A stretch of DNA of 64,000 bases, taken from the NCBI GenBank assembly GCA_009392915.1, contig CP045477.1:1-64000 (forward strand). The letters are read 5' to 3'. The notes beneath the pieces are model-generated. The model was given only the letters and a program-made list of their open reading frames with translations. It was not told the origin of the DNA and made no database searches. Below, piece after piece: positions 16,298 through 38,462 of the stretch. Source of the DNA: Candidatus Forterrea multitransposorum CG_2015-17_Forterrea_25_41. Lineage in GTDB: Archaea > Iainarchaeota > Iainarchaeia > Iainarchaeales > CSSED10-239. Position numbers and translations under genes: made by a program. The first letter of the stretch is position 1, and every line of letters starts with the position of its first letter.

Positions 16298-18844
16298 GTG
16301 TTTTTTATGGATGATGCAAATTTAATGCTTTTAAAAAAGAAAGTAAAAGCTATAAAACAATATAAAGGCCAAGGTACTCAACTTATAAGTCTTTATCTTC
16401 CACCTGATGCAGATAGAAGTTCTGCAACAAAACAATTAACTGATGAAATGAGTCAATCTTCAAATATTAAGAGTGCTCAGACTAGAAAAAATGTACAAGC
16501 AGCTTTAAAAAGAATTATTAATTATTTAAAACAAATTGATTTTAAACTTCCTGAAACAGGTTTAGTTTTATTTTCTGGAGATGTTTCAACTAATCCTTCT
16601 AAATCAGATGTAATTTTACTTGCAATTGCACCTCCTGTAAGACTTACAACTAAGCTTTATTGGTGTGATTCAACATTTCACATAGCTCCTTTAGAAGATA
16701 TGGCACAAACAGATGATGTTTATGGTTTAGTTGTTCTTGACAAACGAGAAGCAACAGTTGCTATTTTAAGAGGAAAATCTAAAGAAATTCTTTTTTCAGA
16801 AACCTCAAATGTTCCTGGTAAAACAAAAGCCGGGGGGCAATGTTTAAAAGATGCTTTTGTATCTTTATCTGATGGGAATTTAATAGATGTTAGTGAAATT
16901 TCTAAAAAGGATATTCTTTCTTCTATGAATTTTAAACAAAATAAATTAATTAATTCTAAGGTTTTAGATAATTGGTCAGTTTCTAAAAATAAAACATATA
17001 TTATTAAAACAAAAGCTCCTGGTACAGAAATAAAAGCTAGTGAAGATCATATATTTTTTGTTTTAACTCCAGATGGTGTTGTTGAAAAAGCTTCAAAAGA
17101 TTTAACTTTAAATGATTATTTGTTATTTCCAGAAAAATTATCTTATAAAAATAAAATTTGGTCTTTTGATACTAAAAAATATATTTCTAAATTAAATAAA
17201 CCTTCTATAAAGATACCTATAAAACTTAATAATGTATTTGCTAAATTTTTAGGTTATTTATTAGGTGATGGTTCTATTGAAACTGATAGATTAACTTTTT
17301 ATGAATCTAGAAAAGATGTTATTTTAGAATATAAAAAGTTATTTGATAAATATTTTAATGTAAATTCTTCTTTAACTTTTAGAGATTCTAAAAATTATTA
17401 TCAATTAAGAGTTAATTCAACTGCTCTTGTAAGATTAATTAAAGAAGAATTTAAGGAAATTAAAAAAGCAAGAGATTCTTTAATACCTTCTAAAATATTA
17501 ACTTCTTCTAATAAAATATTAGCTAATTTTTTAAAAGGATTTTATGATGCTGAAGGTTATATTAATACTTCTAGAAAATCAATAGATATTGGAATAAATA
17601 ATAAAAAAATTGCACAACAACTTCAATTATCATTATTAAGATTTTCAATTATTGGATCTTTACAAGAATATGATAATAAACAAAATCCTTATACAAATAA
17701 CCATAGGTTTGTGATTTCAATTTCTGATAAAGAGTCAATAGATTCTTTTGAAAAAAATATTAATTTTACTTCTTTTGAAAAGCAAAAAAAAATAAAAAAA
17801 ATTCAAAAATTAAAAACAAACATGAGTTTCTCAAGAACACTTCCTGTATATGGTAGTCAGGTTAGATCTGTTGTTACAAAACATGGTTATAATTTAGAAC
17901 TTTTCCCAAAAGTGAGTAGTTTTTTCAATAATAATAGAATGCTTAGTAAATGCTTTTTTAAAAGTTCTGTTTTAGATTATGTTAAAGATAAATCTCTTTT
18001 AAAAGATTTAATTAAATTTTATAATATGCCATTTTTTGCTGCAAAGATAAATTCTATATTTATTGAAAAAAAGAAAACAATTATGACAGACATTTCTGTT
18101 GCTAATAAATCTTTTATTGCAAATGGATTAATTGTTCATAATTCAGCACATAGATTCGAAAGACTAAGAGATAAATATGAAGAAGAGTTTTATAAGAGAG
18201 TAGGTTCTAAAGTAAATACTGCTTTTGTAGATCTTGATAATTTTAAAGGAATGATTGTTGGTGGTCCTGGACTTACTAAAAATGAATTTTTAGAAATTGG
18301 TGATTTAGACCACAGAATAAAAGATAAAGTTTTAGGAACTGTAGATACTTCTTATACAGATGAGTCAGGTATAAAAGAAGTTTTAGATAAATCTGAAGAT
18401 ATTTTAAAAGAAACTGGTTTAGTTCATGAAAGAAAATTAATTAATAAGTTTTTTGAAGACTTAGCAAAAACAGGCCTTGCAAATTATGGTTTTCAAGATG
18501 TAATTGATGCCTTAAATATTGGTAAAGCTTCAACTGTTTTAGTGTCTGAAGGTTTAGAATGGACTGTTTTAATTTTTAAATGTTTATCAGACAAATCTAG
18601 ATTTATAAAAATTGTTAAAGATAAACATGAAGTTTCTGATACTATCTCAAAATTTGAAAATTCTCCAACAGATTGTCCAGAAGGTAAAGCAGAACTTGTT
18701 GAAGAAGTTGATATATATGATTATTTTATAGATATTTCTAAAAATACAAGTGCAAAAGTTGAACTTATTTCTATTGAAACTTTAGAAGGTAAACAATTTT
18801 TTGAAACTTTTGGAGGGCTTGCAGCTTTCTTAAGATATAGGTAA
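16298..18844 (+). CDS. prf1: Peptide chain release factor aRF1 interrupted by an intein
   Basis: NIKS motif (SSNIKSAQ), GGQ motif immediately followed by the intein's Cys; C-extein SAHRFERLR... is the aRF1 continuation; the exteins sum to 414 aa. Confidence 0.85.
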   Translation: MFFMDDANLMLLKKKVKAIKQYKGQGTQLISLYLPPDADRSSATKQLTDEMSQSSNIKSAQTRKNVQAALKRIINYLKQIDFKLPETGLVLFSGDVSTNPSKSDVILLAIAPPVRLTTKLYWCDSTFHIAPLEDMAQTDDVYGLVVLDKREATVAILRGKSKEILFSETSNVPGKTKAGGQCLKDAFVSLSDGNLIDVSEISKKDILSSMNFKQNKLINSKVLDNWSVSKNKTYIIKTKAPGTEIKASEDHIFFVLTPDGVVEKASKDLTLNDYLLFPEKLSYKNKIWSFDTKKYISKLNKPSIKIPIKLNNVFAKFLGYLLGDGSIETDRLTFYESRKDVILEYKKLFDKYFNVNSSLTFRDSKNYYQLRVNSTALVRLIKEEFKEIKKARDSLIPSKILTSSNKILANFLKGFYDAEGYINTSRKSIDIGINNKKIAQQLQLSLLRFSIIGSLQEYDNKQNPYTNNHRFVISISDKESIDSFEKNINFTSFEKQKKIKKIQKLKTNMSFSRTLPVYGSQVRSVVTKHGYNLELFPKVSSFFNNNRMLSKCFFKSSVLDYVKDKSLLKDLIKFYNMPFFAAKINSIFIEKKKTIMTDISVANKSFIANGLIVHNSAHRFERLRDKYEEEFYKRVGSKVNTAFVDLDNFKGMIVGGPGLTKNEFLEIGDLDHRIKDKVLGTVDTSYTDESGIKEVLDKSEDILKETGLVHERKLINKFFEDLAKTGLANYGFQDVIDALNIGKASTVLVSEGLEWTVLIFKCLSDKSRFIKIVKDKHEVSDTISKFENSPTDCPEGKAELVEEVDIYDYFIDISKNTSAKVELISIETLEGKQFFETFGGLAAFLRYR
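16841..18142 (+). mobile_element. Intein (434 aa) with LAGLIDADG homing-endonuclease domain, inserted in the aRF1 GGQ motif
   Basis: Begins with Cys right after AGGQ, ends with HN followed by Ser; LAGLIDADG-like blocks LGYLLGDGSI and LKGFYDAEGYI. Confidence 0.8.
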
Positions 18845-21126: not shown

Positions 21127-23268
21127 TTATTCTTTCTTTATTTTTTCATTTATTGTTTTTTCTTGATATTCAATTTTTAATTCTTTTAAAGTATCAAGTC
21201 CAAATTTTCCAACTAAATTAATAAATTTGTCAGTATTATTTTTAATATCGTTAGCGCTCTTTATACCATTATTAAAAAGTCTTCTAGCTCTTACTCTTCC
21301 AATATTTCTAAGTTCAACTAATGGAACAAGTTCTTGTTTAATACCATACTTAATCCTAGAAAGAAGATTTGAATATTCTTTTATAGTTATAATACTTGAT
21401 TTAGTGTGTTTTAAAAGTTCAATTGTAGAGTGACAGATCCATTCTGCTCTTGATATTAAATCTCTTATTTGTCCTGGTGTGGTATTATACTCATCAATAA
21501 TGTAGTTTTCTTCTTTTTCTTCAATCCAGTCAGCTATAAGTTTTGTTAAATATATTTTTTGTAAAAGATAAATATCTTCATAATCAAAGAAAATATTAGG
21601 TCTAATTTCTTCAAAGATTGTAAATATATTATTTTCTTTTTCTTGTTTATATTTTAAATATGGATACATTTCAGATGTGTTTGAAATAGTAAATATTTTT
21701 TCCATAATTTTAGTATCTTTATTTTTTTTAATCTCAAGATCTTTTAAAATATTATTTGCAGATAATGGATCAATGTATAAATAACATACTTTTTTACCAA
21801 GAGAAGTTATTAAAAAATCATTTTCATTTTTCTCTAAAAAACCATATTCATAGAATTCATAGACAATATCTTGTATATTTTTTCTAATTTCATGATTATC
21901 TCCATATGTGAAATAGTAAAATGTTTTTGATAAATAATTAATAAGTTCTTCTATACTTTTTAGTTCATTAACTAAAATCATAGAAAGCAAATGTCCTCTA
22001 AGAATATTTATTTTAGAAAGTTGAGAATCTATATTGGAAGGACCAGAAATAATATATGTGTTGTATATCTTTGGAATATCACTTTCTTTATTTACAACAC
22101 AAATAGCTTCTCCTTTTTTATCATATTTAGGTCTTCCTGCTCTTCCTGCCATTTGTTGAAATTCATTAACCGGTATTGGAACCATTGATCCTTCTGAAAA
22201 TCTAAACACACTATTAATAACAACTCTATATGCAGGTAAATTAATTCCTGCTGCAAGAGTTGGTGTTGCAAAAATTGCTTTAATATTTCCTTTTTTAAAA
22301 TTATTTTCAACAATTTCTCTTTGTTTATAAACAAGTCCTGCATGATGGAAAGCAGACCCCATTAAAAGAGAAAGAGAAAGTTCTTCACATTGTTTTGTAG
22401 GATTTTCTAAGGCTTCAAGAGCTTCTTTTGAAATTTGTCTTAGTTTTTTATATTCTTCTGGATTTATATGGGTTGATATTATTTTTCCATATTTTTTAGC
22501 AAACGACATTGCATTTTTTCTAGATGCACAAAAAACAATAATTTGTTTTTCTTTTTTTAAAGTGTCTCTAATGATTGATCCTAAATTAATGTTTTTAACT
22601 GCAAGAGAAGTTAAATCTTCTTTTCTATCTTCAAAATAAATAGAGTCGTTATAAAAAACCCCAGTCTCTAAAGGAACTGGCCTATAATTACTTAAAACTA
22701 GTTTTGCAGAAAGCCAATCAGATATTTCTTTTGAATTTTTAATAGTTGCAGATAAACCTAAAAGAGTAATTTCCTTGTAGTTATGTTTTAGTTGTGTTAT
22801 TATTACTTCTAAGGTAGATCCTCTGTTTGATCCAAGTTCATGTATCTCATCAATGGTTAAAAGTCCAACTTGTTTAAGCCAGGATGGCTCATGTCTTATG
22901 ATTGAATCAAATTTTTCGTATGTTAAAAATAAAACATCATAACTTTCAAGATATTTATTACTTGAATCAAGATCTCCTGTTGAGAGTGCTATTTTTACAT
23001 CAAGTTCTTTTGCAAACTTTCTTTTAGTTTCAAGATAATGTTCTGTAGTTAATGCTTTTAAAGGAGATATATATATTACTTTTTTTTTCTTATTTAAAAG
23101 ACAATCAAGCATATACATTTCAAAGACTGTTGTTTTACCTGAAGCAGTAGGTGTTGTTATGAGTGTATTTTCTCCTATGTTTTCTTTTGCTAAGATTTGC
23201 ATAGGGTTAAGTTTATCATAACCGTTAATCTTTAAGATTTTTTGAATAATTTCTTCTTTTGAATGCAT
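21127..23268 (-). CDS. hel308: Ski2-like DNA helicase Hel308/Hjm
   Basis: Walker A PTASGKT, DEIH box (TIDEIHEL), helicase C motifs (QMAGRAGR), C-terminal winged-helix/HhH region; 713 aa. Confidence 0.8.
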   Translation of the reverse strand: MHSKEEIIQKILKINGYDKLNPMQILAKENIGENTLITTPTASGKTTVFEMYMLDCLLNKKKKVIYISPLKALTTEHYLETKRKFAKELDVKIALSTGDLDSSNKYLESYDVLFLTYEKFDSIIRHEPSWLKQVGLLTIDEIHELGSNRGSTLEVIITQLKHNYKEITLLGLSATIKNSKEISDWLSAKLVLSNYRPVPLETGVFYNDSIYFEDRKEDLTSLAVKNINLGSIIRDTLKKEKQIIVFCASRKNAMSFAKKYGKIISTHINPEEYKKLRQISKEALEALENPTKQCEELSLSLLMGSAFHHAGLVYKQREIVENNFKKGNIKAIFATPTLAAGINLPAYRVVINSVFRFSEGSMVPIPVNEFQQMAGRAGRPKYDKKGEAICVVNKESDIPKIYNTYIISGPSNIDSQLSKINILRGHLLSMILVNELKSIEELINYLSKTFYYFTYGDNHEIRKNIQDIVYEFYEYGFLEKNENDFLITSLGKKVCYLYIDPLSANNILKDLEIKKNKDTKIMEKIFTISNTSEMYPYLKYKQEKENNIFTIFEEIRPNIFFDYEDIYLLQKIYLTKLIADWIEEKEENYIIDEYNTTPGQIRDLISRAEWICHSTIELLKHTKSSIITIKEYSNLLSRIKYGIKQELVPLVELRNIGRVRARRLFNNGIKSANDIKNNTDKFINLVGKFGLDTLKELKIEYQEKTINEKIKKE

Positions 23269-23405
23269 ATTTATTTTTTTAAAAAATTTATTTTTCTGTT
23301 TATATATTATTTTTTTCTTTCTATATATTATTATAAAGAAGATAATATAATACCTCTTTTTATTAATTAATTACTTTTAAAAAGATTATTATAAATAATA
23401 TATTT

Positions 23406-23609
23406 ATGGATATAAATAATAAATTATCTAAAAATCTAAAGTTAGCTTTTAAAGCATATGAAACAAGAAGTATTTCTTTATCAGAGGCAGCAGACATCGC
23501 TGGTATTTCATATAAGGATTTTTTAGATAAAATGGCTGTAAATAATGTTAAGTTTGATTTTTCAAGTATTGGAAAAGATGTGAACTATTTTGTTAAGAAA
23601 ACTAAGTAG
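23406..23609 (+). CDS. UPF0175-family small protein (antitoxin-like), orphan
   Basis: 67 aa; LAFKAYETRSISLSEAADIAGISYKDFLDKM resembles UPF0175; no DUF3368/PIN partner adjacent. Confidence 0.35.
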   Translation: MDINNKLSKNLKLAFKAYETRSISLSEAADIAGISYKDFLDKMAVNNVKFDFSSIGKDVNYFVKKTK

Positions 23610-23622
23610 TTTAATCTTTTTT

Positions 23623-24739
23623 TATAATTGTGTTGCATAACTCTTTTTAAAAGTATTGTCTAACCTATTTTATTACTAGATAAAGGAGGTTAGACAATAT
23701 GAATATTAAGAACGAAAAGATTAATAAAAGGAACTGGTCAAAGATAAATTATGGAAAAACAAGACAAATCTTGTTTTTACTAGATAAAAACATTATTTTT
23801 AGTGAAAATGAAAGACTAGTTTCCCAAAATAAAAACAAACCAGGAAGACAATTTATATATAGTGATAGAATAATAGAACTATTAATTGATCTTAAAAATT
23901 ATTTTAAATTTGATTATCGTAAACTACAGGCATTCTGCCTGTTGTTTAATAATGTTATAAAAATAAAAACACCTGACTTTACAACTATTTGTAGAAGAAT
24001 GCACAAATTAGAATTATTTCTAAAAAATATAAAAACAAAAAAAGAACCAACCTTTATAGCTATAGATGGTTCTGGACTTCAAACTACTAATCGAGGAGAA
24101 TGGCTTAGATTAATACACAAAAAAGGAAAAATAAACTTAAGAAATGGATTTGTAAAATTAGTGATTGCAACAGATGTTGCATCTGGAGAAATAACTGGAG
24201 TGTATATTTCAGATGATTCTGATTTTGAAAATAAAAGCTTATCAGATTTATTATACCAAACAATAAATAATCAAAACCAAGAAGTCAAAGGACTTCTTGG
24301 AGATGGGGCATACGATTCTTATGATAACTTTGATATGCTTGATGATATGGGAATAAAACCAATTATCAAAATCAGAAAGAATGCAATTACAACAGAACCT
24401 AATGACGATTATTTAAAAAGAAGAAGAAAACTTGGAAAAAAGAAAAAAATAAAAAGAATTGAAGTTGCAAAAAAGCAACTTAAAAATGTAGATGACTGGA
24501 AACAAAAAAATGAGTATAATAAAAGGTGGGTTGTTGAATACACGTTTAGTGTATTCAAAAGACTATTCGGACATAGTGTGTACTCTAAAAGAAAGAAATA
24601 TGTCAAAAATGAAGTAATTTCTAAAGTAAATTTGTATAATAAATTATTAAATATCAATTAAGAAAAAAATAAAATGAATTAAAAAAAGAAATAAGCTAAA
24701 AATATTGTGTAAAACACAATATTTGTGCAACACAATTTT
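23623..24739 (+). mobile_element. IS5-family-like insertion sequence with ~17-bp imperfect terminal inverted repeats
   Basis: Left end ATAATTGTGTTGCATAA (23623-23639) and right end TTGTGCAACACAATTTT (24723-24739) are reverse complements, with a 12/12 core AATTGTGTTGCA (23626-23637) / TGCAACACAATT (24726-24737); single transposase ORF inside. Confidence 0.6.
23699..24661 (+). CDS. DDE transposase, IS5-like (DDE_Tnp_1 type)
   Basis: IAIDGSGL (D), LLGDGAYDS (D), C-terminal VVEYTFSVFKRLFG (E...K) typical of IS5/IS4-type transposases; 320 aa. Confidence 0.75.
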   Translation: MNIKNEKINKRNWSKINYGKTRQILFLLDKNIIFSENERLVSQNKNKPGRQFIYSDRIIELLIDLKNYFKFDYRKLQAFCLLFNNVIKIKTPDFTTICRRMHKLELFLKNIKTKKEPTFIAIDGSGLQTTNRGEWLRLIHKKGKINLRNGFVKLVIATDVASGEITGVYISDDSDFENKSLSDLLYQTINNQNQEVKGLLGDGAYDSYDNFDMLDDMGIKPIIKIRKNAITTEPNDDYLKRRRKLGKKKKIKRIEVAKKQLKNVDDWKQKNEYNKRWVVEYTFSVFKRLFGHSVYSKRKKYVKNEVISKVNLYNKLLNIN

Positions 24740-24818
24740 TTTTATCTTTTTTAGTTACATTTATAAATATAATCTTCTTTAATATTAGTACCTTATATAT
24801 ATTATACTCAGATCATTT

Positions 24819-26192
24819 ATGGCTATAGACAAAAGATTTTTTTTAGGGATAACTATTAGTAAAAAAAGAAAAGCAATTTCTCCTTTAATTGCCACTATTC
24901 TTTTAATAGTTGTTGCCGTTGCAATTATAGCTATTATTGTTTCCTGGGGAAAAGGATTTACCAATGATTCTTTAAGCAAAGCCTCTGGTCTTGAAATTTA
25001 CACTGAATCAGAAACTTCTTTTTACTTGCAAGTAAAAAATTCAATAAACGGAAGAACTGTTGTTCAATATAATCCTCCTTATAATTCTCCTCACACCTCT
25101 TTAACCATAACAGGTTATAGCCTACATGGTAACACGAATATTAATCCCATAGATCCACCAATTACAATAACTGCAAACCAAACTGCAGTTATTGATCATG
25201 GTATTTTATTTCCAGAATTAAATTTAGTTTTATATTTGGATAATGATCGAATGATTATTAAAACTGATCTTTTACAAACTATTAAATCTCCTCTTTCTTG
25301 TCCAGAAGGTTATGTTTCTGTTCCAGGAAACCACTTATATGGAACTATGAATGAAAGTGGGGGTTTTTGTGTTTCAAAATATGAGATGAAAATGGATAGA
25401 ACAGGAGATGGAATAGGAAATCTTGTAGCTGATTATCCTGATTGTAACACCGGTTCTTTAACATATAATACTTATAGTTATGAATTATGCCCTACACCAG
25501 GCACTTTAGTTTCTACTCCAGAAGGTTCTCCCATAGCAAGAATCACACAAACTGAAAGCATATCAGCCTGTGAAGCTATTGGTGGTCATTTAATAACAAA
25601 TAACGAATGGATGACCATTGTACGAAACATAGAACAAGTTCCATCTAATTGGTCAGGTGGAGCAGTTGGTGATGGCTACCTTCCAAGAGGGAATTCATCT
25701 TCTTCAGGAGCTATGGAAGGCTTTGATCAACTTTCAGGAACTACCAAAAGAACCTTGACCTTAACAAACGGAGAGGTAATTTGGGATTTAGCAGGAAATG
25801 TAAGACAATGGACCAGTGACACTATTCAAAGAAAGGACCAGCCTGATGGTTTTAATAATGTAGATGATAGTAATAATACTTCTGGTTTTAATTGGTTTGA
25901 TTATTTTAAGGGCGGTGGAGTAGATCAATATATTTATTCTGATAATTTAGGTAACACCACCTTAAAGTATAAAGATTTATTTTTATTAACTAGTAATACT
26001 TATAATGCAACAGATAATGGTGTTGGAAGGATTTATACTTATAGTGATTTTAGTGATACTAGTACAACTGAGTACGCGTTTTTGCGCGGTGGTCACTGGG
26101 GCAATGGCACTAATGCCGGGGTCTTGCACCTGGTCTTGAACAAGACTCCTGGGTCCCGGAGCATCCTCATCGGCCTGCGCTGTGTCAAGTAG
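24819..26192 (+). CDS. DGR target: pilin-like (class III signal peptide) surface protein with C-terminal FGE/C-type-lectin-fold variable region
   Basis: N-terminus KAISPLIATILLIVVAVAIIAII (archaeal pilin-like); C-terminus YAFLRGGHWGNG...LIGLRCVK resembles the FGE-sulfatase/CLec fold used by DGR variable proteins; its last ~120 nt form a GC-rich VR matching the TR. Confidence 0.75.
   Translation: MAIDKRFFLGITISKKRKAISPLIATILLIVVAVAIIAIIVSWGKGFTNDSLSKASGLEIYTESETSFYLQVKNSINGRTVVQYNPPYNSPHTSLTITGYSLHGNTNINPIDPPITITANQTAVIDHGILFPELNLVLYLDNDRMIIKTDLLQTIKSPLSCPEGYVSVPGNHLYGTMNESGGFCVSKYEMKMDRTGDGIGNLVADYPDCNTGSLTYNTYSYELCPTPGTLVSTPEGSPIARITQTESISACEAIGGHLITNNEWMTIVRNIEQVPSNWSGGAVGDGYLPRGNSSSSGAMEGFDQLSGTTKRTLTLTNGEVIWDLAGNVRQWTSDTIQRKDQPDGFNNVDDSNNTSGFNWFDYFKGGGVDQYIYSDNLGNTTLKYKDLFLLTSNTYNATDNGVGRIYTYSDFSDTSTTEYAFLRGGHWGNGTNAGVLHLVLNKTPGSRSILIGLRCVK
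26072..26192 (+). repeat. DGR variable repeat (VR), 3' end of the target gene
   Basis: ~55% GC in a ~25% GC genome; near-identical to 27297-27417 with 13 mismatches, 12 of them at template adenines; identical 3' 24 nt CATCGGCCTGCGCTGTGTCAAGTAG (IMH-like). Confidence 0.8.
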
Positions 26193-26498
26193 TTTTTAGA
26201 AAAAATATATTTCATCCCCAAACCATGTATTTAGACGGGTGAGACGGCAAGACGGCCAGACGGAAGAAGCCATGGCAACCTAAACGTTTCAAGATTGTTT
26301 TTGCAAAAAAATGAAAAAACGTATTTGTGAAGTTTTAAAAAAAAGAAATGAGTGTGATTTTTGCAAATTTTTTTGATTTTTTTCAAAAAAATTTGCTAGC
26401 CGTTAAACCAAATGGTTTTTTAATGTAAAAATAATTTTTATAATAATTAAGTTTTAAAGAAAAAATACTTTATATCTTGGACAAACAATGTGATTTAA

Positions 26499-26885
26499 AT
26501 GAGTTTAGTTGGAAATGAAAAAGGAATTCTAAATTTTGGTGTTTACAAGGAGCTTTTCCCAATCGTTATTGAAACTTATAATTTTTTAGAAAATAATAAA
26601 TCTTTATTTAAAGTAGATTTTGTTTATACAGATACTGTTAAAAATTTAATAGATATTCTTTCTTTTCTTTCCAAAGGGTATAATAAATTTCATTCTAATG
26701 AAAAATCTTTACTTTACTCTTATTCAAGAGATTGTGTTTCTACAACCCAATCTAATCTTTTAATATTATCTGAACTTAATAAAGATCTCTCAAAAGAAAA
26801 AACCTTATATTTTTATAATCAATTTGAGGATAAAATAAAGTATTTTAATGGTTTAATAAAAAAGATTGAAGAAAATAAAAACTAG
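26499..26885 (+). CDS. Hypothetical protein inside the DGR cassette
   Basis: 128-aa ORF between the target gene and avd; no recognisable motif. Confidence 0.3.
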   Translation: MSLVGNEKGILNFGVYKELFPIVIETYNFLENNKSLFKVDFVYTDTVKNLIDILSFLSKGYNKFHSNEKSLLYSYSRDCVSTTQSNLLILSELNKDLSKEKTLYFYNQFEDKIKYFNGLIKKIEENKN

Positions 26886-26896
26886 GGTATATTATT

Positions 26897-27226
26897 ATGT
26901 TATTTGACTTAAAGTTATATAAAGAAACTTATAACTTTTTACTTTATATTTATCCTGAAATAAATAAATTCCCTAAATCAGATAAATATTCTTTAGGAGA
27001 GGATATTAAAAAAACAACTATTTCTTTAATGTCAAATATTGTTCTTTTTTCAAAGCATAATGAAAATACTTTAAAAGAAGCAGATAAAAACTTAGAATTA
27101 CTAAGAATATATATTAGGCTTTCTTTTGATTTAAAAATAATCTCTTTTAAAAAATATGAGGTTATTTCAAGGCAATTAAATGATATTGGTAATTTATTAG
27201 GTGGTCTTTTAAAACAAAAGATTTAA
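26897..27226 (+). CDS. avd: Accessory variability determinant (Avd)-like four-helix-bundle protein
   Basis: 109 aa, predicted all-helical, basic; sits immediately upstream of TR and RT (canonical avd-TR-RT order). Confidence 0.55.
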   Translation: MLFDLKLYKETYNFLLYIYPEINKFPKSDKYSLGEDIKKTTISLMSNIVLFSKHNENTLKEADKNLELLRIYIRLSFDLKIISFKKYEVISRQLNDIGNLLGGLLKQKI

Positions 27227-27296
27227 ATATTTTTTCAACTAATAGTTATGTTGTTCTTTTAAATAAAAAGAATAGGGCTTTTACAGAAAAAAACAG

Positions 27297-27417
27297 GTGC
27301 GCGTTTTTGCGCGGTGGTAACTGGAACAATGGCACTAATGCCGGGGTCTTGAACCTGAACTTGAACAATACTCCTGGGAACCGGAACAACAACATCGGCC
27401 TGCGCTGTGTCAAGTAG
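27297..27417 (+). repeat. DGR template repeat (TR)
   Basis: GC-rich noncoding copy of the VR containing AAC/AAT codons (would encode N-rich ...NWNNGTNAGVLNLNLNNTPGNRNNNIGLRCVK); located between avd and the RT. Confidence 0.8.
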
Positions 27418-27678
27418 TTTCTCCTTATTATTTTTAATAATAAGGTTTTATCAGAGTTTGTATGTTTATTTTTTTATCTAAAAAAACATATAAAGCGAAT
27501 ATTTTAAAAAACTACATCTGTAAAATGTTTCCTGATTGCACATAATGTGTGCCATAAGAACTATTTTGTTTTTATGTTAAAAAATCAAATATAAAGATAA
27601 GTTATTACATTTAGTATTTTTATAGTCTGTAAAAAGAAATCTGTAATAACTCTTAACTTTAAATAAGGCTTTTTAAAA

Positions 27679-28695
27679 ATGAAATCATACAATAACCTTT
27701 GGCAAGAATTCACTTCTTTTAAAAATATTTTTAATGCCTATAAAAAAGCAAGAAAGTCCACACCAAACAAAAAGTATATCTTGCAATTTACCACAAATTT
27801 AGAAAAGGAGTTATTCTTATTACAAGATCAATTAATTTCAGAAAATTTTCAATTTTCTCCTTACAGAAGTTTTAAAGTTTATGAACCTAAAGAAAGAACA
27901 ATAAGTGCACCTATTTTCAGGGATGTTGTTGTTCAGCATGCCATAATAAACATTATTGAACCTATTTTTGATAAAACCTTTATAGATAACTCTTTTGCTT
28001 GTAGAAAAGGAAAAGGCACACATAAAGGGCTTTTTGAAATTAAAAAAGTAATTCAAACCCCAAATCATCCAAAATACTATTTAAAACAAGATGTAAAGAA
28101 ATACTTTCCTTCAGTTCATAAACCTACCTTAAAAGAAATAATTTTTAAAAGAATTAAGGATGCAAGATTACTTTCTCTAATATATAAAATAATTGATAGT
28201 TATTCTTTTGATTTAAATCAAATTCAAAAAGGTATCCCTATAGGTAATTTAACCTCTCAGTTGTTTGCAAATATTTATTTAAACCATTTAGATCAGTATG
28301 TTAAGCATTCTTTAAAAATTAAACATTATTATAGATATGTAGATGATTTTTTAATATTTTCAAACAATAAAAGAAAATTACATGTTTTTAGAAGAAAAAT
28401 AAAATTATTTTTAAGTAAAGAACTATTATTAGATGTTCCAAAAAATAAAACTTATATAAACTTAGTAAGTAAAGGAGTTGATTTTTTAGGTTATAAGGTA
28501 TTTCCTTCAAACATAAGATTAAGAAAATCAAATCTTAAAAGATTTCTTCTAAGACAAAATAAAAATAACTTTCTTCTAAAAAAAAATCAAATTTCTAAAC
28601 TTAACTATAATTTTTCTCTTTTTTCTTTTTTAGGTTATGCAAAGCATGCAAACTCTTATAATCTCTTAAGTACTTTAAATATTAATGAGTTATAG
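27679..28695 (+). CDS. DGR-type reverse transcriptase
   Basis: RT motifs: ISAPIFRDVVVQHAI, IGNLTSQLFANIYL (the DGR-specific SQ variant of QGxxxSP), YYRYVDDF (YxDD catalytic motif); 338 aa. Confidence 0.85.
   Translation: MKSYNNLWQEFTSFKNIFNAYKKARKSTPNKKYILQFTTNLEKELFLLQDQLISENFQFSPYRSFKVYEPKERTISAPIFRDVVVQHAIINIIEPIFDKTFIDNSFACRKGKGTHKGLFEIKKVIQTPNHPKYYLKQDVKKYFPSVHKPTLKEIIFKRIKDARLLSLIYKIIDSYSFDLNQIQKGIPIGNLTSQLFANIYLNHLDQYVKHSLKIKHYYRYVDDFLIFSNNKRKLHVFRRKIKLFLSKELLLDVPKNKTYINLVSKGVDFLGYKVFPSNIRLRKSNLKRFLLRQNKNNFLLKKNQISKLNYNFSLFSFLGYAKHANSYNLLSTLNINEL
28589..28687 (+). repeat. 99-bp direct repeat, copy 1 (3' end of the RT gene)
   Basis: Identical to 30138-30236. Confidence 0.85.
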
Positions 28696-28838
28696 TTTAT
28701 TTTTATTATGGGCACTTGAGCGTCTATTTTAAACTTAAATTATAATCTTTTACTAACGCACTATACCTTAATTATAATCTTCTATCAAAAGACTATATTT
28801 AAAAATGTTTTTATTATATATTATATTAGTGATAAAAT

Positions 28839-30104
28839 ATGGATAAAGCTTTTTTAAGAAACGTTGTTTCTGACCAGTATGAAGATTTAAAAGATGTTTC
28901 AAAAACAATACAAAGATATGATTCAAAAGAAATAGCGCGCTTTGTAAATAATCCTGCTATATCTATAATTTCAGGAGTAAGGCGTTGTGGTAAGTCCACT
29001 TTTTTAGAGCAGATAATAAATTTATATTATAAAAATAACTTTTATTATTTTGATTTTTCTGATGAAAGAATTGCAAAATTTGAAACTGCTGACTTTCAAA
29101 CATTATATGAGGTGTTTTTAGAAAAATTTGGAAAAAGACAGGCTTTTTTCTTTGATGAAATACAAGGAGTTCCAGAATGGAATAAATTTGTTAATAGAAT
29201 GAAAAAGATTGGGCATAAATGTTTTGTAACCGGTTCAAATTCAAATTTGTTAAGTCAAGAAATATCTACTTATCTAACAGGAAGACATATTGATAAAATC
29301 TTATTCCCTTTTTCCTTTAAAGAATATTTAACGTATAAAAATATTAATGTAGATTTAGATTCTACAAAATCAAGAACCTTAATTATTAAAGAGTTTAAAA
29401 ATTACTTTAAAATAGGTGGTTTTCCAGAGGTTGTTTTAACAAACGATACTTCAATTTTATTAAATATTTATTCTGACATAATTTCTAAAGATATAATTGA
29501 AAGATTTAGGATTAATGATGTTTCTTTATTTAAAGAATTTTGTAATTATGTAATTTCTTTATCTACGAATGAATTTACTTTTAAATCATTAAAAGATAAT
29601 TTTAATATTCAGAATATTACTACTGTTTCAAACTATCTTGATTATCTTAAATTAACTTACCTTGTTTATGAAGTTAAAAGATTTTCTTCTTCATTACAAA
29701 AATTAAATAAATATCCAAAAAAATATTATTGTATAGATAATGGTTTATTAAATAAAGTGGGTTTTGGATATTCAATAGAGGAAACTAGATTTTTAGAAAA
29801 TCAAGTTTTTATTGAACTTTGGAGAAATAATCCGCAATCTGAAATTTATTATTATAGAGATAAGGATAATAAAGAATGTGATTTTTTATTGTTAAATGAT
29901 AGAAAAGTAGTTAAGGCTATTCAAGTGTGTTTTGCTTTTAAAAAGATAGATACTAGAAAAAGAGAAATAGAAGGTTTACTATCTGCTTTAAAAGAGTTTA
30001 ATCTAAATTATGGCGAAATTATTACTTTTGAGCATAAAGAAAAATTAAAGATAGATGGAAAAGTAATAGAGATGATTCCTGTATATGAGTGGTTATTAAA
30101 ATAA
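28839..30104 (+). CDS. AAA+ ATPase of the COG1373 / DUF4143 family
   Basis: Walker A SGVRRCGKST, Walker B FFFDEIQ, C-terminal DUF4143-like region; 421 aa. Confidence 0.65.
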   Translation: MDKAFLRNVVSDQYEDLKDVSKTIQRYDSKEIARFVNNPAISIISGVRRCGKSTFLEQIINLYYKNNFYYFDFSDERIAKFETADFQTLYEVFLEKFGKRQAFFFDEIQGVPEWNKFVNRMKKIGHKCFVTGSNSNLLSQEISTYLTGRHIDKILFPFSFKEYLTYKNINVDLDSTKSRTLIIKEFKNYFKIGGFPEVVLTNDTSILLNIYSDIISKDIIERFRINDVSLFKEFCNYVISLSTNEFTFKSLKDNFNIQNITTVSNYLDYLKLTYLVYEVKRFSSSLQKLNKYPKKYYCIDNGLLNKVGFGYSIEETRFLENQVFIELWRNNPQSEIYYYRDKDNKECDFLLLNDRKVVKAIQVCFAFKKIDTRKREIEGLLSALKEFNLNYGEIITFEHKEKLKIDGKVIEMIPVYEWLLK

Positions 30105-30137
30105 TTTTTTTTAATTTTAAAAAAGGCTTTACCTTTA

Positions 30138-30236
30138 AAATTTCTAAACTTAACTATAATTTTTCTCTTTTTTCTTTTTTAGGTTATGCAAAGCATGCAA
30201 ACTCTTATAATCTCTTAAGTACTTTAAATATTAATG
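30138..30236 (+). repeat. 99-bp direct repeat, copy 2 (duplicated RT 3' end)
   Basis: Identical to 28589-28687; here it reads ...INGFIV* instead of the RT's ...INEL*. Confidence 0.85.
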
Positions 30237-30336
30237 GTTTTATAGTGTAGATTCTCTTTGCATTAAAAATATTGTTTTTGAAAAAAACAAAGCTTTAAAT
30301 TTTGTTTATTTATATAATATATTAGGTGAAAGCAAT

Positions 30337-30549
30337 ATGAAATATAGAGTTTTAATAGAACAAGACGAAGATGGTATCTTTGTTGCTGAATGCCCTAGTC
30401 TTCCAGGTGCAATTTCTCAAGGAAAAACAAGAGAAGAAGCAATAATAAATATTAAAGAAGCCATAAAAGGTTATCTTGAAAGTTTAAAGATAGCTAATGA
30501 ACCAATTCCTTCTCCAATATCTGAAGAAATAATTGATATTTATGGATAA
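30337..30549 (+). CDS. hicB: HicB-family antitoxin (UPF0150)
   Basis: MKYRVLIEQDEDGIFVAECPSLPGAISQGKTREEAIINIKEAI is a classic HicB/UPF0150 fold signature; overlaps hicA by 17 nt. Confidence 0.7.
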   Translation: MKYRVLIEQDEDGIFVAECPSLPGAISQGKTREEAIINIKEAIKGYLESLKIANEPIPSPISEEIIDIYG

Positions 30550-30766
30550 ACTGCCTATTATATCTGGTCAAGATTTAATCAAATTACTTCTAAAATTAGA
30601 TTATCAAGTTCATCATCAAACTGGATCACATATTATCTTAAGACAAAATAAAGAACCTTTTAGAAGATTAACAATTCCAAACCATAAAGAAATTTCAATA
30701 GGGACTTTAAGAGCAATTATAAGGCAAGTTGGAATAACAAGAGAAGAATTTGTTAAATTATTCTAA
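30533..30766 (+). CDS. hicA: HicA-family mRNA interferase toxin
   Basis: QTGSHIILRQ ... motif of the HicA/YcfA family; 77 aa. Confidence 0.7.
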   Translation: MIFMDKLPIISGQDLIKLLLKLDYQVHHQTGSHIILRQNKEPFRRLTIPNHKEISIGTLRAIIRQVGITREEFVKLF

Positions 30767-31041
30767 ATTAAATTGTTCTTTTAATTATTATTTTTAATTT
30801 TTTTAAAGTAAAATAAATAATTTTTAACCTAATTTAAATGTTTTTAAGTAATTTATAATATTTTTTTAATTTACTACATAAAAACAAATCTTTTTAAGCA
30901 ATTCGGTCTATAATTATATTATATAAAAAATCTACTTTTATAAATATCCTATTTTTTGCGGCTGTTTTAATTATTAAAAACAGTAGTAGATAGGTTATTG
31001 ATTTTTAGTTTCTATGATTAGAAGACAAGAGGTTAATTAAC

Positions 31042-31719
31042 ATGATAAAAACAAAAGATATTATTGAAATTGATCTAATTTTAAAAGATGTAAATACTAA
31101 TGAAATTTTAGATACTACAAAAAAAGAAATTGCGAAAGAAAATAATTTAAATTTAAAAAATGAATATAAACCTTTAAATTATGTTTTTGGTACTGGAGAA
31201 CTTTTAAAAGGTATTGAAGATAATATTTCTGATTTAGAAGTTTCTAAAACAAAAACATTTGTTTTAAAAAAAGAACAAGCTTTCAAAGATAAAGACCCTA
31301 AAAAAATAGAATTAGTTTCTTTAAATGAATTTAAAAAAGAAAATGTAAGACCAGAAGTTGGTTTATTTGTAAATATTGGAAATAGATCTGGAAAAATAAT
31401 TTCTGTTTCTGGTGGAAGAGTTAAAGTTGATTTTAATCCTATTTATGCAGGAAGAGATTTAGAATATACTGTAACAATAAATAAAGTTATTTCTAAAGAT
31501 TCTGATAAACTTCCTTTACTTTTAGAAAAGGCATTTTATTTTATGCCAAAAGAACAAATTAATTTAATTTCTAAAGAAGATGAAATTGAAGTTGAAATGC
31601 CTTTAGGTGTTCCTCAAGAAATTGATTATTTTAAACAATTTTTTGCAAAACTAGTTTTTGATTCAACTAATTATGAAAATGTTAAGTTTGTTCAAAAATT
31701 AACTAAGAAAAAAGGGTGA
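31042..31719 (+). CDS. FKBP-type peptidyl-prolyl cis-trans isomerase (SlyD-like with insert domain)
   Basis: LNYVFGTGELLKGIED and VDFNPIYAGRDLEYTVTI motifs typical of archaeal FKBPs. Confidence 0.65.
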   Translation: MIKTKDIIEIDLILKDVNTNEILDTTKKEIAKENNLNLKNEYKPLNYVFGTGELLKGIEDNISDLEVSKTKTFVLKKEQAFKDKDPKKIELVSLNEFKKENVRPEVGLFVNIGNRSGKIISVSGGRVKVDFNPIYAGRDLEYTVTINKVISKDSDKLPLLLEKAFYFMPKEQINLISKEDEIEVEMPLGVPQEIDYFKQFFAKLVFDSTNYENVKFVQKLTKKKG

Positions 31720-35724: not shown

Positions 35725-35786
35725 ATATTTTTTTAAAAATAACTTTATAAAACAATTTATATTGTTTATGTTCTATAATTATAATT

Positions 35787-37617: not shown

Positions 37618-37699
37618 GCAGAGGTGGCGGAGTGGTCAAACGCGCCAGCCTTGAGAGCTGGAGCCTTGCGCTACACGAGTTCGAATCTCGTCCTCTGCG
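37618..37699 (+). tRNA. tRNA-Ser (anticodon UGA)
   Basis: Cloverleaf with acceptor stem GCAGAGG/CCTCTGC, anticodon loop CUUGAGA, long variable arm, T-arm ACGAG-TTCGAAT-CTCGT; no encoded CCA. Confidence 0.8.
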
Positions 37700-37730
37700 C
37701 TTTATCTTTTAAAATATAGGAATTTTTATT

Positions 37731-38063: not shown

Positions 38064-38084
38064 TTTTTTTTTAAAACTAAAAAT

Positions 38085-38166
38085 GCAGAGGTGGCGGAGT
38101 GGTCAAACGCGCAAGCCTGGAAAGCTTGAGCCTCGTGCTACGCGAGTTCGAATCTCGTCCTCTGCG
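38085..38166 (+). tRNA. tRNA-Ser (anticodon GGA)
   Basis: Near-identical backbone to tRNA-Ser(UGA); anticodon loop CUGGAAA. Confidence 0.8.
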
Positions 38167-38197
38167 CTTTTTTCTTTTTTAATTTAATATTTATTTT

Positions 38198-38286: not shown

Positions 38287-38462
38287 TAGCTGGTTTCGGT
38301 CAGCTAGCACCCAATGATTTTGCGTTTGTTAACGCTTATTTAAACTTTCTTTTTAAAAGAAGTGATTTTCCCCCAAAACTTTTTTTCTTTAAAAATTGTG
38401 TTTTAAAAATTTTTAATCTATTTTATATCTATTTAAAATACTTTTGCCTCTCTTTAATATTT

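What the first reader, a model, noticed from the sequence alone, without database searches (positions are those of the whole stretch)
23400..30800. Accessory island: orphan UPF0175, IS element, DGR, AAA ATPase cassette, HicBA
Between the housekeeping genes hel308 (ending 23268) and the FKBP/proteasome genes (from 31042) lies a ~7.4-kb block made up entirely of accessory functions. It carries the only GC-rich segments in the window. The DGR gives targeted protein diversification, HicAB gives RNA-targeting toxin-antitoxin activity, and the COG1373 ATPase is often defence-associated. Together these suggest a host-interaction/defence island.
Basis: inference. Interest (0 to 1): 0.55.

Follow-up and report, generated by a model that had tools for sequence, protein, structure and literature searches.

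The report
Mosaic accessory island with active DGR
A 7.5-kb variable island in a tiny groundwater archaeon (Iainarchaeota) was built by separate insertions around a working diversity-generating retroelement that rewrites the tip of a pilin-like surface protein; the parts are known kinds, but the locus records how such elements are gained, exchanged and lost.

Summary
The block is accessory: one relative has hel308 directly next to FKBP, and others carry different subsets.

It is a mosaic of separately gained or lost modules, not one unit:
- an orphan UPF0175 gene;
- an IS5-family element with an 8-bp target duplication, at several sites in the population;
- a complete DGR;
- a 1.45-kb one-gene COG1373 ATPase cassette between perfect 99-nt copies of the RT gene's 3' end;
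- HicBA.

The DGR target carries an archaeal type IV prepilin signal. Between assemblies the compared 6.2 kb (24800-31000) differs only in the VR, which has three haplotypes. One haplotype fits the template of a second DGR in the same genome. Two relatives lost TR and avd through VR/TR recombination. A second Avd-like gene and a conserved 4x GACGG array downstream of the VR are lineage-specific.

The GC claim is only partly right: tRNA-Ser genes, 5S rRNA and one coding segment are also GC-rich.

The most novel lead is that COG1373 genes elsewhere are also flanked by duplicated target 3' ends, including a tRNA-Thr.

The parts
23390..30865 (.). Accessory island as a whole, between the hel308 start and the conserved FKBP upstream region
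   Evidence: The L021 empty site aligns to the window up to about 23355 and again from about 30865. Relatives carry different subsets of the content.
23406..23609 (+). Orphan UPF0175 gene (67 aa) with no partner toxin ORF
   Evidence: PF03683 at 5.9e-8, above cutoff. It is present at 77-87% identity in L017, L018 and L019 and as a 71-aa PF03683 gene in L026, absent from L021, and not linked to the DGR copy at another locus, L025.
23626..24737 (+). IS5-family insertion sequence, 1112 bp. Transposase ORF 23699-24661. Terminal inverted repeats AATTGTGTTGCA at 23626-23637 and 24726-24737.
   Evidence: NCBIfam transpos_IS5_2 at 195 bits against a cutoff of 140. Inverted repeats shown. The identical transposase occurs at five or more genomic contexts in the same population. 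Many contigs end at its edges.
23618..23625 (.). Left copy of the 8-bp target-site duplication TTTTTTAT. The right copy is at 24738-24745.
   Evidence: Read directly from the sequence. The reconstructed empty site matches the L026 UPF0175-target spacer.
24819..26192 (+). DGR target gene (457 aa). The N-terminus is an archaeal class III (type IV prepilin) signal, KRKA|ISPLIATILL. The C-terminus is a C-type-lectin/FGE-sulfatase domain.
   Evidence: TIGR02537 at 24.1 bits against a cutoff of 20, plus similarity to the UpsA pilin. PF03781 at 29.5 bits against 23.3. The signal is present in four orthologous targets (L018, L019, L026, L027) and its hydrophobic core in L025, whose ORF call starts inside the signal.
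26072..26195 (+). Variable repeat (VR). The mutable part is about 26094-26169. The last roughly 28 nt are identical to the TR and act as an IMH-like end.
   Evidence: Three population haplotypes differ only here.
26234..26263 (+). Array of four GACGG motifs (spacing 9, 8, 8 nt), about 40 nt downstream of the VR. Candidate target-site marker.
   Evidence: Conserved downstream of the VR in the window, L025, L026 and L027-29, while the surrounding spacer diverges. It is absent downstream of the TR. Four of the five GACGG in the 64-kb window lie here.
26363..26396 (+). Perfect 13-nt inverted repeat, GCAAATTTTTTTG / CAAAAAAATTTGC, between the target gene and orf128
   Evidence: Read from the sequence. 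Conserved in L025 and L026, and replaced by a GC-rich hairpin in L027.
26499..26885 (+). orf128, a second and divergent Avd-like four-helix-bundle accessory gene
26897..27226 (+). avd (109 aa)
   Evidence: PF22296 bAvd at 2.2e-21. NCBIfam DivGenRetAVD at 92 bits against a cutoff of 80.
27297..27420 (+). Template repeat (TR), with 12 AAY codons
   Evidence: Identical in all population contigs.
27421..27678 (+). TR-RT spacer, a conserved structured non-coding region. It is probably the 3' part of the DGR RNA.
   Evidence: 97% identical to L018 and 93% to L019, against 81% and 89% for the adjacent RT gene. The fold z-score is -3.3. Nine pairs show compensatory changes across six sequences. No Rfam family matches.
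27679..28695 (+). DGR reverse transcriptase (338 aa), with IGNLTSQ at residue 188 and YVDD at residue 220
   Evidence: RVT_1 at 1.5e-21. Motifs.
28589..28687 (+). Left copy of a perfect 99-nt direct repeat. It encodes the last 33 codons of RT.
   Evidence: Relatives without this cassette have this sequence only once.
28688..30137 (+). One-gene cassette holding the AAA_14+DUF4143 (COG1373) ATPase, ORF 28839-30104, with Walker A GVRRCGKS and Walker B FFFDE
   Evidence: Pfam. PADLOC PDC-S01 at 1.5e-102. Orthologues 72-83% identical lie in unrelated contexts. Homology between cassettes spans about 28731-30120.
30138..30236 (+). Right copy of the 99-nt direct repeat, a displaced duplicate of the RT 3' end. 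The ancestral post-RT sequence follows it.
30337..30766 (+). hicB (30337-30549) and hicA (30533-30766), an overlapping toxin-antitoxin pair. HicA keeps its GSH motif.
   Evidence: PF15919 at 1.8e-10 and PF07927 at 1.8e-17. Sequence. The pair is absent from L017, L018, L019, L021 and L026.

Best explanation
The region is a strain-variable insertion hotspot between hel308 and the FKBP-proteasome genes of an Iainarchaeota (Diapherotrites, DPANN) genome. It was filled by independent events.

The oldest layer is an orphan UPF0175 gene plus a complete DGR. The DGR order is target, orf128 (Avd-like), avd, TR, structured spacer, RT.

How the DGR most likely works (inferred from the established Bordetella phage BPP-1 mechanism, not shown here):
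1. An RNA covering the TR and spacer is reverse-transcribed by RT with Avd, probably together with orf128.
2. Adenines are copied unfaithfully.
3. The cDNA replaces the VR in the last 40 codons of a type IV pilin-like surface protein. This randomises up to 12 Asn-templated positions of a C-type-lectin ligand-binding face. The protein is probably used to attach to other cells or surfaces.
4. The VR is told apart from the TR by its downstream sequence, for which the conserved 4x GACGG array is the best candidate.

What is shown: the element has been active recently in nature, and one VR haplotype carries the three bases that are specific to the TR of a second DGR in the same genome. The two loci therefore exchange information.

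Later additions in this lineage are an IS5-family element (clean insertion with an 8-bp duplication), a one-gene COG1373 ATPase cassette inserted at the RT 3' end with a 99-nt duplication that keeps RT intact, and HicBA. These are selfish or defence-type modules that accumulate at a permissive site. They are not parts of one machine.
For: Island status: there is an empty site in L021, and relatives L017, L018, L019 and L026 carry different subsets.

DGR anatomy: Pfam and NCBIfam matches, RT motifs IGNLTSQ and YVDD, and TR/VR with 12 of 13 mismatches at adenines (p = 8e-8).

DGR activity: 14 independent contigs from different samples are identical over 24800-30940 except in the VR. There they form three haplotypes; the only other differences are two contigs with an apparent 1-nt indel near 30946, in the spacer upstream of FKBP. 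Hap1 and hap3 differ at 18 sites, 14 of them TR adenines.

Cross-talk between DGRs: hap3 has no non-adenine mismatches to the TR of DGR-2 (L025) but three to its own TR. Those three fall exactly at the three sites where the two TRs differ in the mutable region. Hap3 keeps its own 3' end. Both DGRs are in the same MAGs, judged from their protein accession series and a shared 839,632-bp contig.

Pilin nature of the target: TIGR02537 above cutoff and a conserved KRKAISPLIATILL signal.

orf128: always adjacent to avd and has an Avd-type fold.

GACGG array.

Structured spacer.

Independent additions:
- IS: inverted repeats, target duplication and polymorphic sites.
- ATPase cassette: direct repeats and orthologues in unrelated contexts.
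- HicBA: present only in this lineage.
Against: - No reads or transcripts were available. 'Activity' therefore rests on consensus haplotypes, of which there are only three. Hap2 differs from hap1 at a single adenine site.
- Hap1 has one non-adenine difference (T to G at 26144).
- Hap3 shares 11 of 15 substituted bases with the VR of DGR-2. DNA gene conversion from VR2, rather than RNA-mediated trans-homing, could therefore explain the cross-talk.
- No BPP-1-like hairpin lies downstream of the VR. The DNA fold is weaker than all 200 shuffles.
- The role of the GACGG array is inferred from position and conservation only.
- A four-helix bundle is a common fold, and the profile comparison of orf128 with Avd was not significant.
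- A COG1373 gene lies next to the RT or its remnant in the window and in L019, and at the same site in L017. A functional link to the DGR cannot be excluded.
Confidence: 0.8

Rival explanations
1. The block is conserved core genome in this lineage, and its accessory look is only an annotation impression.
For: UPF0175 plus the target and RT genes occupy the same site in four relatives: L018, L019, L026 and the window.
Against: L021 has hel308 and FKBP 270 bp apart with nothing between them. L017 has no DGR. The IS, the ATPase cassette and HicBA are found only in the window's population.
Confidence: 0.02
2. The 7.5 kb is one horizontally acquired element, such as an integrated plasmid, provirus or integrative element, that arrived in a single event.
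For: It has sharp boundaries against conserved flanks. It contains mobile and defence-type genes.
Against: - There is no integrase, no structural or replication genes, and no tRNA at the edges.
- Composition equals the host's, 25.8% against 24.4% GC.
- Relatives carry nested subsets of the modules, which is what stepwise gain and loss would give.
- The IS and the ATPase cassette each have their own target duplications inside the island.
Confidence: 0.06
3. The modules form one cooperating system. For example, the COG1373 ATPase and HicBA could regulate or assist the DGR, or the DGR could feed a defence function.
For: A COG1373 gene or its remnant lies directly downstream of the RT in the window and in L019, and at the same site in L017. 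L030 has a DGR 4.7 kb from an ATPase-A orthologue.
Against: - L026 and L025 have complete DGRs with adenine-specific VR/TR differences and no ATPase or HicBA.
- ATPase-A orthologues mostly lie in unrelated contexts.
- The window's ATPase and the L017/L019 one are only 37-39% identical, so they are separate arrivals.
Confidence: 0.1
4. The 99-nt repeat and the ATPase cassette are an assembly artefact: a chimeric join through a repeat.
For: Two contigs (L015, L016) begin exactly at the left repeat, at 28592.
Against: The same RT-repeat-ATPase-repeat-HicBA arrangement, base for base, is found in 12 or more contigs from independent samples and assemblers. This includes k = 141 assemblies, whose k-mer is longer than the repeat.
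Confidence: 0.02

Closest known systems
Bordetella phage BPP-1 DGR (mtd-avd-TR-brt), the prototype diversity-generating retroelement
   Same: - Same gene order: target, avd, TR, RT.
- The VR is at the 3' end of a C-type-lectin-fold target.
- TR/VR differences are adenine-specific and fall on AAY codons.
- The 3' end of VR and TR is identical, like an IMH.
- Avd is a four-helix bundle.
- The RT has the IGxxxSQ and YVDD motifs.
   Different: - Chromosomal and archaeal rather than phage-borne.
- The target is a pilin-like protein, not a tail fibre.
- There is an extra Avd-like gene, orf128.
- There is no GC-rich hairpin downstream of the VR. A 4x GACGG direct-repeat array sits there instead.
- VR and TR are identical through the whole 3' end, so no distinct IMH/IMH* difference is visible.
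DGRs of DPANN archaea and CPR bacteria (Paul et al. 2015, PMC4372165; Paul et al. 2017, not readable here; surveys PMC5758913 and PMC8144416)
   Same: A DPANN host from groundwater metagenomes, a C-terminal lectin-fold VR, and Avd-like small basic accessory ORFs. Diapherotrites fall within the DPANN group surveyed in PMC5758913.
   Different: - PMC8144416 states that archaeal (clade 5) targets typically show no recognisable transmembrane or other conserved domain. Here the target has a clear class III prepilin signal.
- The locus also shows two DGRs in one genome exchanging VR information.
- It has a tandem pair of Avd-like genes. Two avd genes were seen in 1 of 372 DGRs in PMC5758913.
IS5-family insertion sequences
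   Same: A single DDE transposase ORF above the NCBIfam IS5 cutoff, an element of about 1.1 kb, terminal inverted repeats, a target-site duplication and several genomic copies.
   Different: The duplication is 8 bp. From memory this length fits the ISH1 group of IS5, but no ISfinder comparison was possible, so the subgroup is not assigned.
HicAB type II toxin-antitoxin systems
   Same: HicA (PF07927, with the GSH motif) and HicB (PF15919) are encoded by overlapping genes.
   Different: The antitoxin gene comes first. HicB is only 70 aa and has no recognisable DNA-binding domain. Activity was not tested.
PADLOC candidate defence gene PDC-S01 (COG1373; AAA_14 + DUF4143, the latter listed as a PD-(D/E)XK-superfamily domain in PMC3424549)
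   Same: Full-length match at 1.5e-102, with intact Walker A and B motifs.
   Different: No function has been demonstrated for the family. Here the gene behaves as a mobile one-gene cassette bounded by duplicated target sequence. I found no description of this in the searchable literature.
Integrative elements that target the 3' ends of tRNA genes (tyrosine-recombinase att duplications)
   Same: Direct repeats consist of the 3' end of the target gene, and the target stays intact. In L033 the repeat is the last 22 nt of tRNA-Thr plus 3 flanking nt.
   Different: - The repeat-bounded unit is only 1.4-1.7 kb and encodes no integrase.
- Repeat length varies from 20 to 113 nt.
- The target differs between closely related cassettes: an RT gene, a tRNA, RtcB.

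Membership tests
Diversity-generating retroelement (DGR) | Reverse transcriptase of the DGR clade, with the IGxxxSQ motif in place of the group II intron QG motif, plus YxDD | tested here: met
   RVT_1 at 1.5e-21. IGNLTSQ at residue 188 and YVDD at residue 220. That this motif is diagnostic of DGR RTs comes from my own knowledge of the literature.
Diversity-generating retroelement (DGR) | A TR/VR repeat pair whose differences fall at TR adenines | tested here: met
   124-nt pair. Twelve of 13 internal mismatches are at TR adenines, all in codon positions 1 or 2 (p = 8e-8).
Diversity-generating retroelement (DGR) | The VR lies in the C-terminal ligand-binding domain (C-type lectin fold) of a target protein | tested here: met
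   The VR covers the last 40 codons. PF03781 FGE-sulfatase scores 29.5 bits against a cutoff of 23.3. The fold itself was not modelled.
Diversity-generating retroelement (DGR) | Accessory variability determinant (Avd) | tested here: met
   NCBIfam DivGenRetAVD at 92.4 bits against a cutoff of 80, and PF22296. There is also a second Avd-fold gene, orf128.
Diversity-generating retroelement (DGR) | Hairpin or cruciform downstream of the VR, as in BPP-1 | tested here: not met
   Region 26160-26300 folded as DNA gives -7.1 kcal/mol, weaker than all 200 shuffles (z = +1.97). A 4x GACGG array occupies this position instead. This feature is not universal among DGRs.
Diversity-generating retroelement (DGR) | Ongoing mutagenic homing: VR diversity in a population with an invariant TR | tested here: met
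   There are three VR haplotypes in 14 independent contigs. The TR is identical in all of them and nothing else differs across 24800-30940; the only other differences are an apparent 1-nt indel near 30946 in two contigs. This rests on consensus sequences, not on reads.
IS5-family insertion sequence | DDE transposase, terminal inverted repeats, target-site duplication and multiple copies | tested here: met
   NCBIfam IS5 at 195 bits against 140. 12-nt inverted repeats. 8-bp duplication TTTTTTAT. Five or more contexts for the identical transposase.
HicAB toxin-antitoxin | Adjacent HicA and HicB genes with the HicA catalytic histidine | tested here: met
   PF07927 at 63.6 bits and PF15919 at 41.5 bits, both above cutoff. 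The genes overlap by 17 nt. A GSH motif is present.
HicAB toxin-antitoxin | Toxicity of HicA (mRNA cleavage) neutralised by HicB | not testable with these tools
   Needs expression experiments.
UPF0175 antitoxin of a type II TA pair | An adjacent cognate toxin gene, for example a PIN-domain gene | tested here: not met
   No ORF partner lies between 23269 and 23625, nor in the IS-free orthologous loci L018, L019 and L026. 'Orphan' is correct, and it should not be called a TA system.
Anti-phage defence gene (PADLOC PDC-S01) | Sequence membership in the candidate family | tested here: met
   PDLC04787 at 1.5e-102, full length.
Anti-phage defence gene (PADLOC PDC-S01) | Demonstrated protection against viruses | not testable with these tools
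   The family is itself only a candidate. No experimental paper was found.
Archaeal type IV pilin | Class III signal peptide: a basic stretch, a small residue, then a hydrophobic helix beginning (I/L)SP(L/V)IA(T/S) | tested here: met
   TIGR02537 at 24.1 bits against a cutoff of 20. The motif KRKA|ISPLIATILLIVVAVAIIAIIV is present in four orthologous targets, and its hydrophobic core is present in L025.
Archaeal type IV pilin | Processing by a prepilin peptidase and assembly into a filament | not tested
   Pilus machinery genes were not searched for in the window. Biochemistry would be needed.
Genomic island | Present in some close relatives and absent in others, with conserved flanks | tested here: met
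Genomic island | Classical hallmarks: deviant composition, flanking tRNA, integrase, terminal repeats | tested here: not met
   GC is 25.8% against 24.4%. There is no tRNA within 7 kb, no integrase and no repeats at the island edges.

The most novel reading that the evidence does not exclude
COG1373 (AAA_14 + DUF4143, PADLOC PDC-S01) genes may be autonomous one-gene mobile cassettes of a kind not yet described. They insert at or near the 3' ends of genes and tRNAs. They duplicate a variable stretch of the target (20-113 nt), so the target gene stays intact. They carry no integrase or transposase. This would make the ATPase and PD-(D/E)XK-like protein itself, or a host recombination pathway it recruits, the mobility function.

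Evidence so far:
- The window's cassette (1450 nt) lies between perfect 99-nt copies of the RT 3' end.
- An 83%-identical orthologue lies between 25-nt copies of the 3' end of tRNA-Thr.
- Another orthologue lies between 36-nt repeats.
- Nine of 57 distant homologues have flanking repeats stronger than any of 57 mismatched controls. Among neighbouring genes only 2 of 59 do, and one of those two is an IS110.
- In one of the nine cases the repeat is the 3' end of RtcB.
Probability: 0.25. Interest if true: 0.8.

Novelty: new member of a known kind. Interest (0 to 1): 0.5.

Why it matters
DGRs are widespread in DPANN archaea, but what they diversify has mostly been unclear. Here the target is recognisably a type IV pilin-like protein, which makes 'hypervariable adhesin for attaching to partner cells' a testable idea in a phylum with no cultures.

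The set of related loci also gives a natural time series for a DGR:
- complete and active (the window, L026);
- cross-talking with a paralogous DGR in the same genome;
- disabled by VR/TR recombination that freezes the VR and deletes TR and avd (L018, L019);
- disabled by loss of the RT (L027-29).

The conserved GACGG array and the extra Avd-like gene are concrete candidates for how this lineage recognises its target site.

Separately, the repeat-flanked COG1373 cassettes suggest that a very common 'defence-island' gene of unknown function is itself mobile. That would change how its enrichment in such islands is read.

Tried and rejected
- Rfam over 23000-31200 at E <= 1: no match. The TR-spacer RNA is not a curated family.
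- DNA folding downstream of the VR to find a BPP-1-like cruciform: none.
- Profile comparison of orf128 with Avd: not significant. Only a shared ETYNFL motif aligned. The Avd-like assignment therefore rests on fold and position.
- Pfam at E <= 10 for orf128: only noise.
- Exact search of 55 nt of the RT 3' repeat in metagenome contigs, to look for cassette-free or circular junctions: 0 hits. That collection evidently lacks these samples.
- Exact look-up of the RT protein predicted for a cassette-free allele (ending ...NINGFIV): not in the collection.
- Search for an IS-free UPF0175|target allele in the same population: none among 23 contigs.
- Direct repeats flanking HicBA: none above chance.
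- Repeats at the island edges: none.
- My first GACGG pattern had the wrong spacing and found nothing. It was corrected.
- Paul et al. 2017 (PMC5436926) could not be read. I could not check whether pilin-type targets or the GACGG array were already noted there.
- Literature searches for COG1373 and DUF4143 returned only a classification table and incidental mentions.
- The idea that L018 and L019 are avd-less DGRs of a different architecture was rejected. Their VR runs straight into the TR-downstream spacer, so the TR itself is missing.

Full report
**Observation**

The window is about 24.6% GC. Record titles of the closest genomes identify it as an Iainarchaeota/Diapherotrites (DPANN) archaeon. 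Each was confirmed with profile searches:
- UPF0175 at 23406-23609.
- An IS5-family transposase at 23699-24661.
- A 457-aa FGE-sulfatase-domain protein at 24819-26192.
- A 128-aa ORF with no family match at 26499-26885.
- Avd at 26897-27226.
- A reverse transcriptase at 27679-28695.
- An AAA_14+DUF4143 ATPase at 28839-30104.
- HicB at 30337-30549 and HicA at 30533-30766.

A 124-nt repeat pair links the end of the 457-aa gene (VR, 26072-26195) with a non-coding copy (TR, 27297-27420). Twelve of its 13 internal mismatches fall at TR adenines, all in codon positions 1 or 2 (p = 8e-8).

**Is it an island?**

Yes. Five related genomes were found through Hel308 and one more through orf128. Protein and DNA comparisons show the following at this site:
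- L021 (Hel308 80% identical): hel308 and FKBP are separated by 270 bp. This spacer aligns to the window up to about 23355 and again from about 30865. It is a clean empty site.
- L026: hel308, UPF0175, target, orf128, avd, TR, RT, FKBP.
- L018 and L019: UPF0175, target and RT only.
- L017, a second contig in the same MAG as L018: UPF0175 followed by a different COG1373 ATPase (37% identical), then FKBP.

The IS, the window's ATPase and HicBA were not found in any of these relatives. It is a mosaic rather than a unit.

Its overall GC (25.8%) equals that of the rest of the window (24.4%). Only the target's lectin domain, the VR, the GACGG array and the TR are GC-rich (up to 0.60). Three tRNA-Ser genes, a 5S rRNA and one coding segment elsewhere in the window also exceed 45% GC.

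**The DGR**

The RT has the IGNLTSQ and YVDD motifs, and Avd passes the NCBIfam equivalog cutoff.

*The target.* The target protein begins with a canonical archaeal class III (type IV prepilin) signal, KRKA|ISPLIATILLIVVAVAIIAIIV. It scores above the TIGR02537 cutoff and resembles the UpsA pilin. Four orthologous targets carry the signal; in L025 only its hydrophobic core is within the called ORF. A published survey states that archaeal DGR targets usually show no recognisable transmembrane or other domain (PMC8144416), so this is informative. The TR encodes 12 AAY (Asn) codons. By the established adenine-mutagenesis logic, this allows on the order of 10^14 protein variants.

*Downstream of the VR.* There is no stable hairpin. 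Instead there is an array of four GACGG motifs at 26234-26263. The array is conserved downstream of the VR in the window, L025, L026 and L027-29, while the surrounding spacer diverges. It occurs nowhere else in the 116 loci held at that point. It accounts for four of the five GACGG in the whole window. It is the best candidate for the feature that marks the VR, and not the TR, as the recipient. That role is inferred, not shown.

*The TR-RT spacer.* The 258-nt spacer is more conserved than the genes around it: 97% and 93% identity against 81% and 89% for the RT. It folds better than shuffled sequences (z = -3.3) and has hairpins with compensatory changes. No Rfam family matches it. It is probably the part of the DGR RNA that the RT-Avd complex handles.

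**Activity in nature**

The identical RT and ATPase proteins occur in more than 60 data blocks. Fourteen independent contigs from different samples cover the VR. Across 24800-30940 they differ only in the VR; the one other difference, near 30946 in the spacer upstream of FKBP, is an apparent 1-nt indel in two contigs (L003, L010). In the VR they form three haplotypes, carried by 5, 3 and 6 contigs. The TR is invariant. Hap1 and hap3 differ at 18 positions, and 14 of these are TR adenines.

The three cytosine-position differences of hap3 fall exactly where the window's TR differs from the TR of a second DGR, L025. Against that second TR, hap3 has 18 mismatches and all are at adenines. Hap3 nevertheless keeps its own 3' end. 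Protein accession series and a shared 839,632-bp contig place both DGRs in the same genomes.

One VR state was therefore written from the other DGR. Two routes are possible:
- Trans-homing of TR2 cDNA. I favour this route.
- DNA conversion from VR2. This is plausible because hap3 and the VR2 of L025 share 11 of 15 substituted bases (p = 0.002 to 0.04, depending on the assumed substitution bias).

**Decay in relatives**

In L018 and L019 the adenine-substituted VR runs straight into the sequence that follows the TR in the window. Recombination between VR and TR has thus deleted the GACGG array, orf128, avd and the TR, and has frozen the VR. The L019 RT also carries an in-frame stop. In L027-29 the TR is truncated at its 3' end and no RT follows. 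These are two distinct ways in which this DGR lineage dies.

**The IS**

The element spans 23626-24737. It has 12-nt terminal inverted repeats and an 8-bp duplication, TTTTTTAT. The reconstructed empty site matches L026.

The identical transposase lies in at least five contexts. Two of these are sites that are empty in the window: between the 277-aa gene and the CCA-adding enzyme gene, and between TBP and STT3. Both reciprocal flank combinations with another copy are seen. This could be real IS-mediated rearrangement or assembler joins through the repeat. No IS-free allele of this site was found in the same population.

**The ATPase cassette**

A perfect 99-nt direct repeat (28589-28687 and 30138-30236) consists of the last 33 codons of the RT. 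Relatives have this sequence once, and their post-RT sequence continues after the window's second copy. A 1450-nt segment holding only the ATPase gene was therefore inserted at the RT 3' end. The accompanying duplication leaves the RT intact, with its end changed from ...NIK* to ...NINEL*.

Orthologues 72-83% identical lie in unrelated neighbourhoods. One (L033) is bounded by 25-nt repeats that are the 3' end of tRNA-Thr(CGT). Another (L030) is bounded by 36-nt repeats.

Among 57 distant COG1373 loci with enough flank, 9 have flanking direct repeats of 20-113 nt that score above every one of 57 mismatched-flank controls. Only 2 of 59 neighbouring genes do, and one of those is an IS110 transposase (Fisher p = 0.028 and 0.003). 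In L089 the repeat is the 3' end of RtcB. Repeat-bounded units are 1.39-1.68 kb and hold only the ATPase gene.

I could find no description of this behaviour. The mechanism is unknown. Three candidates are:
- Single-crossover integration of a circular copy that carries a piece of the target.
- A trans-acting recombinase.
- Variable-stagger cleavage by the ATPase and PD-(D/E)XK-like protein itself.

**HicBA and UPF0175**

HicBA occupies the position where L017 and L019 carry the other COG1373 gene. It has no flanking repeats. UPF0175 has no partner toxin in any locus, so 'orphan' is right and it should not be called a TA system.

**Verdict**

The finding is correct and its interpretation is supported. 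The island is a hotspot that has collected independent selfish and defence-type modules around an old, still active DGR. All parts belong to known kinds. The extra value lies in five things: the pilin-type target, the population evidence for activity and inter-DGR exchange, the decay series, the lineage-specific cis and trans accessories, and the lead that COG1373 genes are mobile cassettes.

Noticed in passing
L019 1-12109 (JBBISB010000001.1, range 359414-381522): There is a 6.35-kb tandem duplication of the unit FKBP, ATPase remnant, RT, target, UPF0175, hel308. At the junction, hel308 is cut at residue 615 and abuts the first 25 codons of the proteasome gene. It could be a real segmental duplication or a misassembly.
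   Followed up: no
window 16298-18844 (+): The release factor aRF1/eRF1 gene is interrupted by an intein that carries a LAGLIDADG homing endonuclease domain (Pfam Intein_splicing and LAGLIDADG_3). The L026 orthologue has the same insertion.
   Followed up: partly
window 55212-55328 (+): A 5S rRNA gene (Rfam, 63 bits) lies alone in the TBP-STT3 intergenic region. Other strains of the same population carry a copy of the island's IS in this same intergenic region (L120).
   Followed up: partly
window 35725-35786: In some population contigs (L125, and probably L119) the same IS is inserted between the 277-aa gene and the CCA-adding enzyme gene. The window has no insertion there.
   Followed up: partly
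window 37618-38287: A cluster of three tRNA-Ser genes (anticodons TGA, GGA, CGA). The third overlaps the long ORF call of the following class I tRNA synthetase gene. That gene's called length varies from 369 to 440 aa between assemblies.
   Followed up: no
L017 (reverse complement) about 2720-2790; L018, L019 and L026 downstream of the RT: A conserved roughly 60-nt element with paired TGCCAA/TTGGCA motifs (…AGTGCCAATAATTTAGCTTTTTTTGGCATTGTTGGTGCCAA…) lies just upstream of the L017-type COG1373 gene. It persists downstream of the RT in L018 and L026, where that gene is absent. It may be an operator or a cassette end.
   Followed up: no
L037 1328-2629: A periplasmic-binding-protein gene next to an ATPase-A orthologue is itself flanked by 47-nt direct repeats (85% identical). 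The repeats contain a TTTTCACTTTTAG motif that resembles motifs at the 3' ends of the ATPase cassettes.
   Followed up: no
L033 5192-8537; L034 1258-6253: Two COG1373 paralogues lie within 1-3 kb of each other in the same contig. The family accumulates locally.
   Followed up: no
window 28730-28793: Two tandem 32-nt imperfect repeats (72% identical) lie in the ATPase cassette's upstream region. They contain TTAATTATAATCTT and AAAAGACTATATTT. The latter is conserved upstream of orthologous ATPase genes and is probably the promoter or an operator.
   Followed up: no
L015 and L016 start (window 28592): Two contigs from different assemblers begin exactly at the left edge of the 99-nt repeat. This would be expected if a second path, such as a circular or tandem cassette junction, enters the repeat in those samples. 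It could not be checked without reads.
   Followed up: partly
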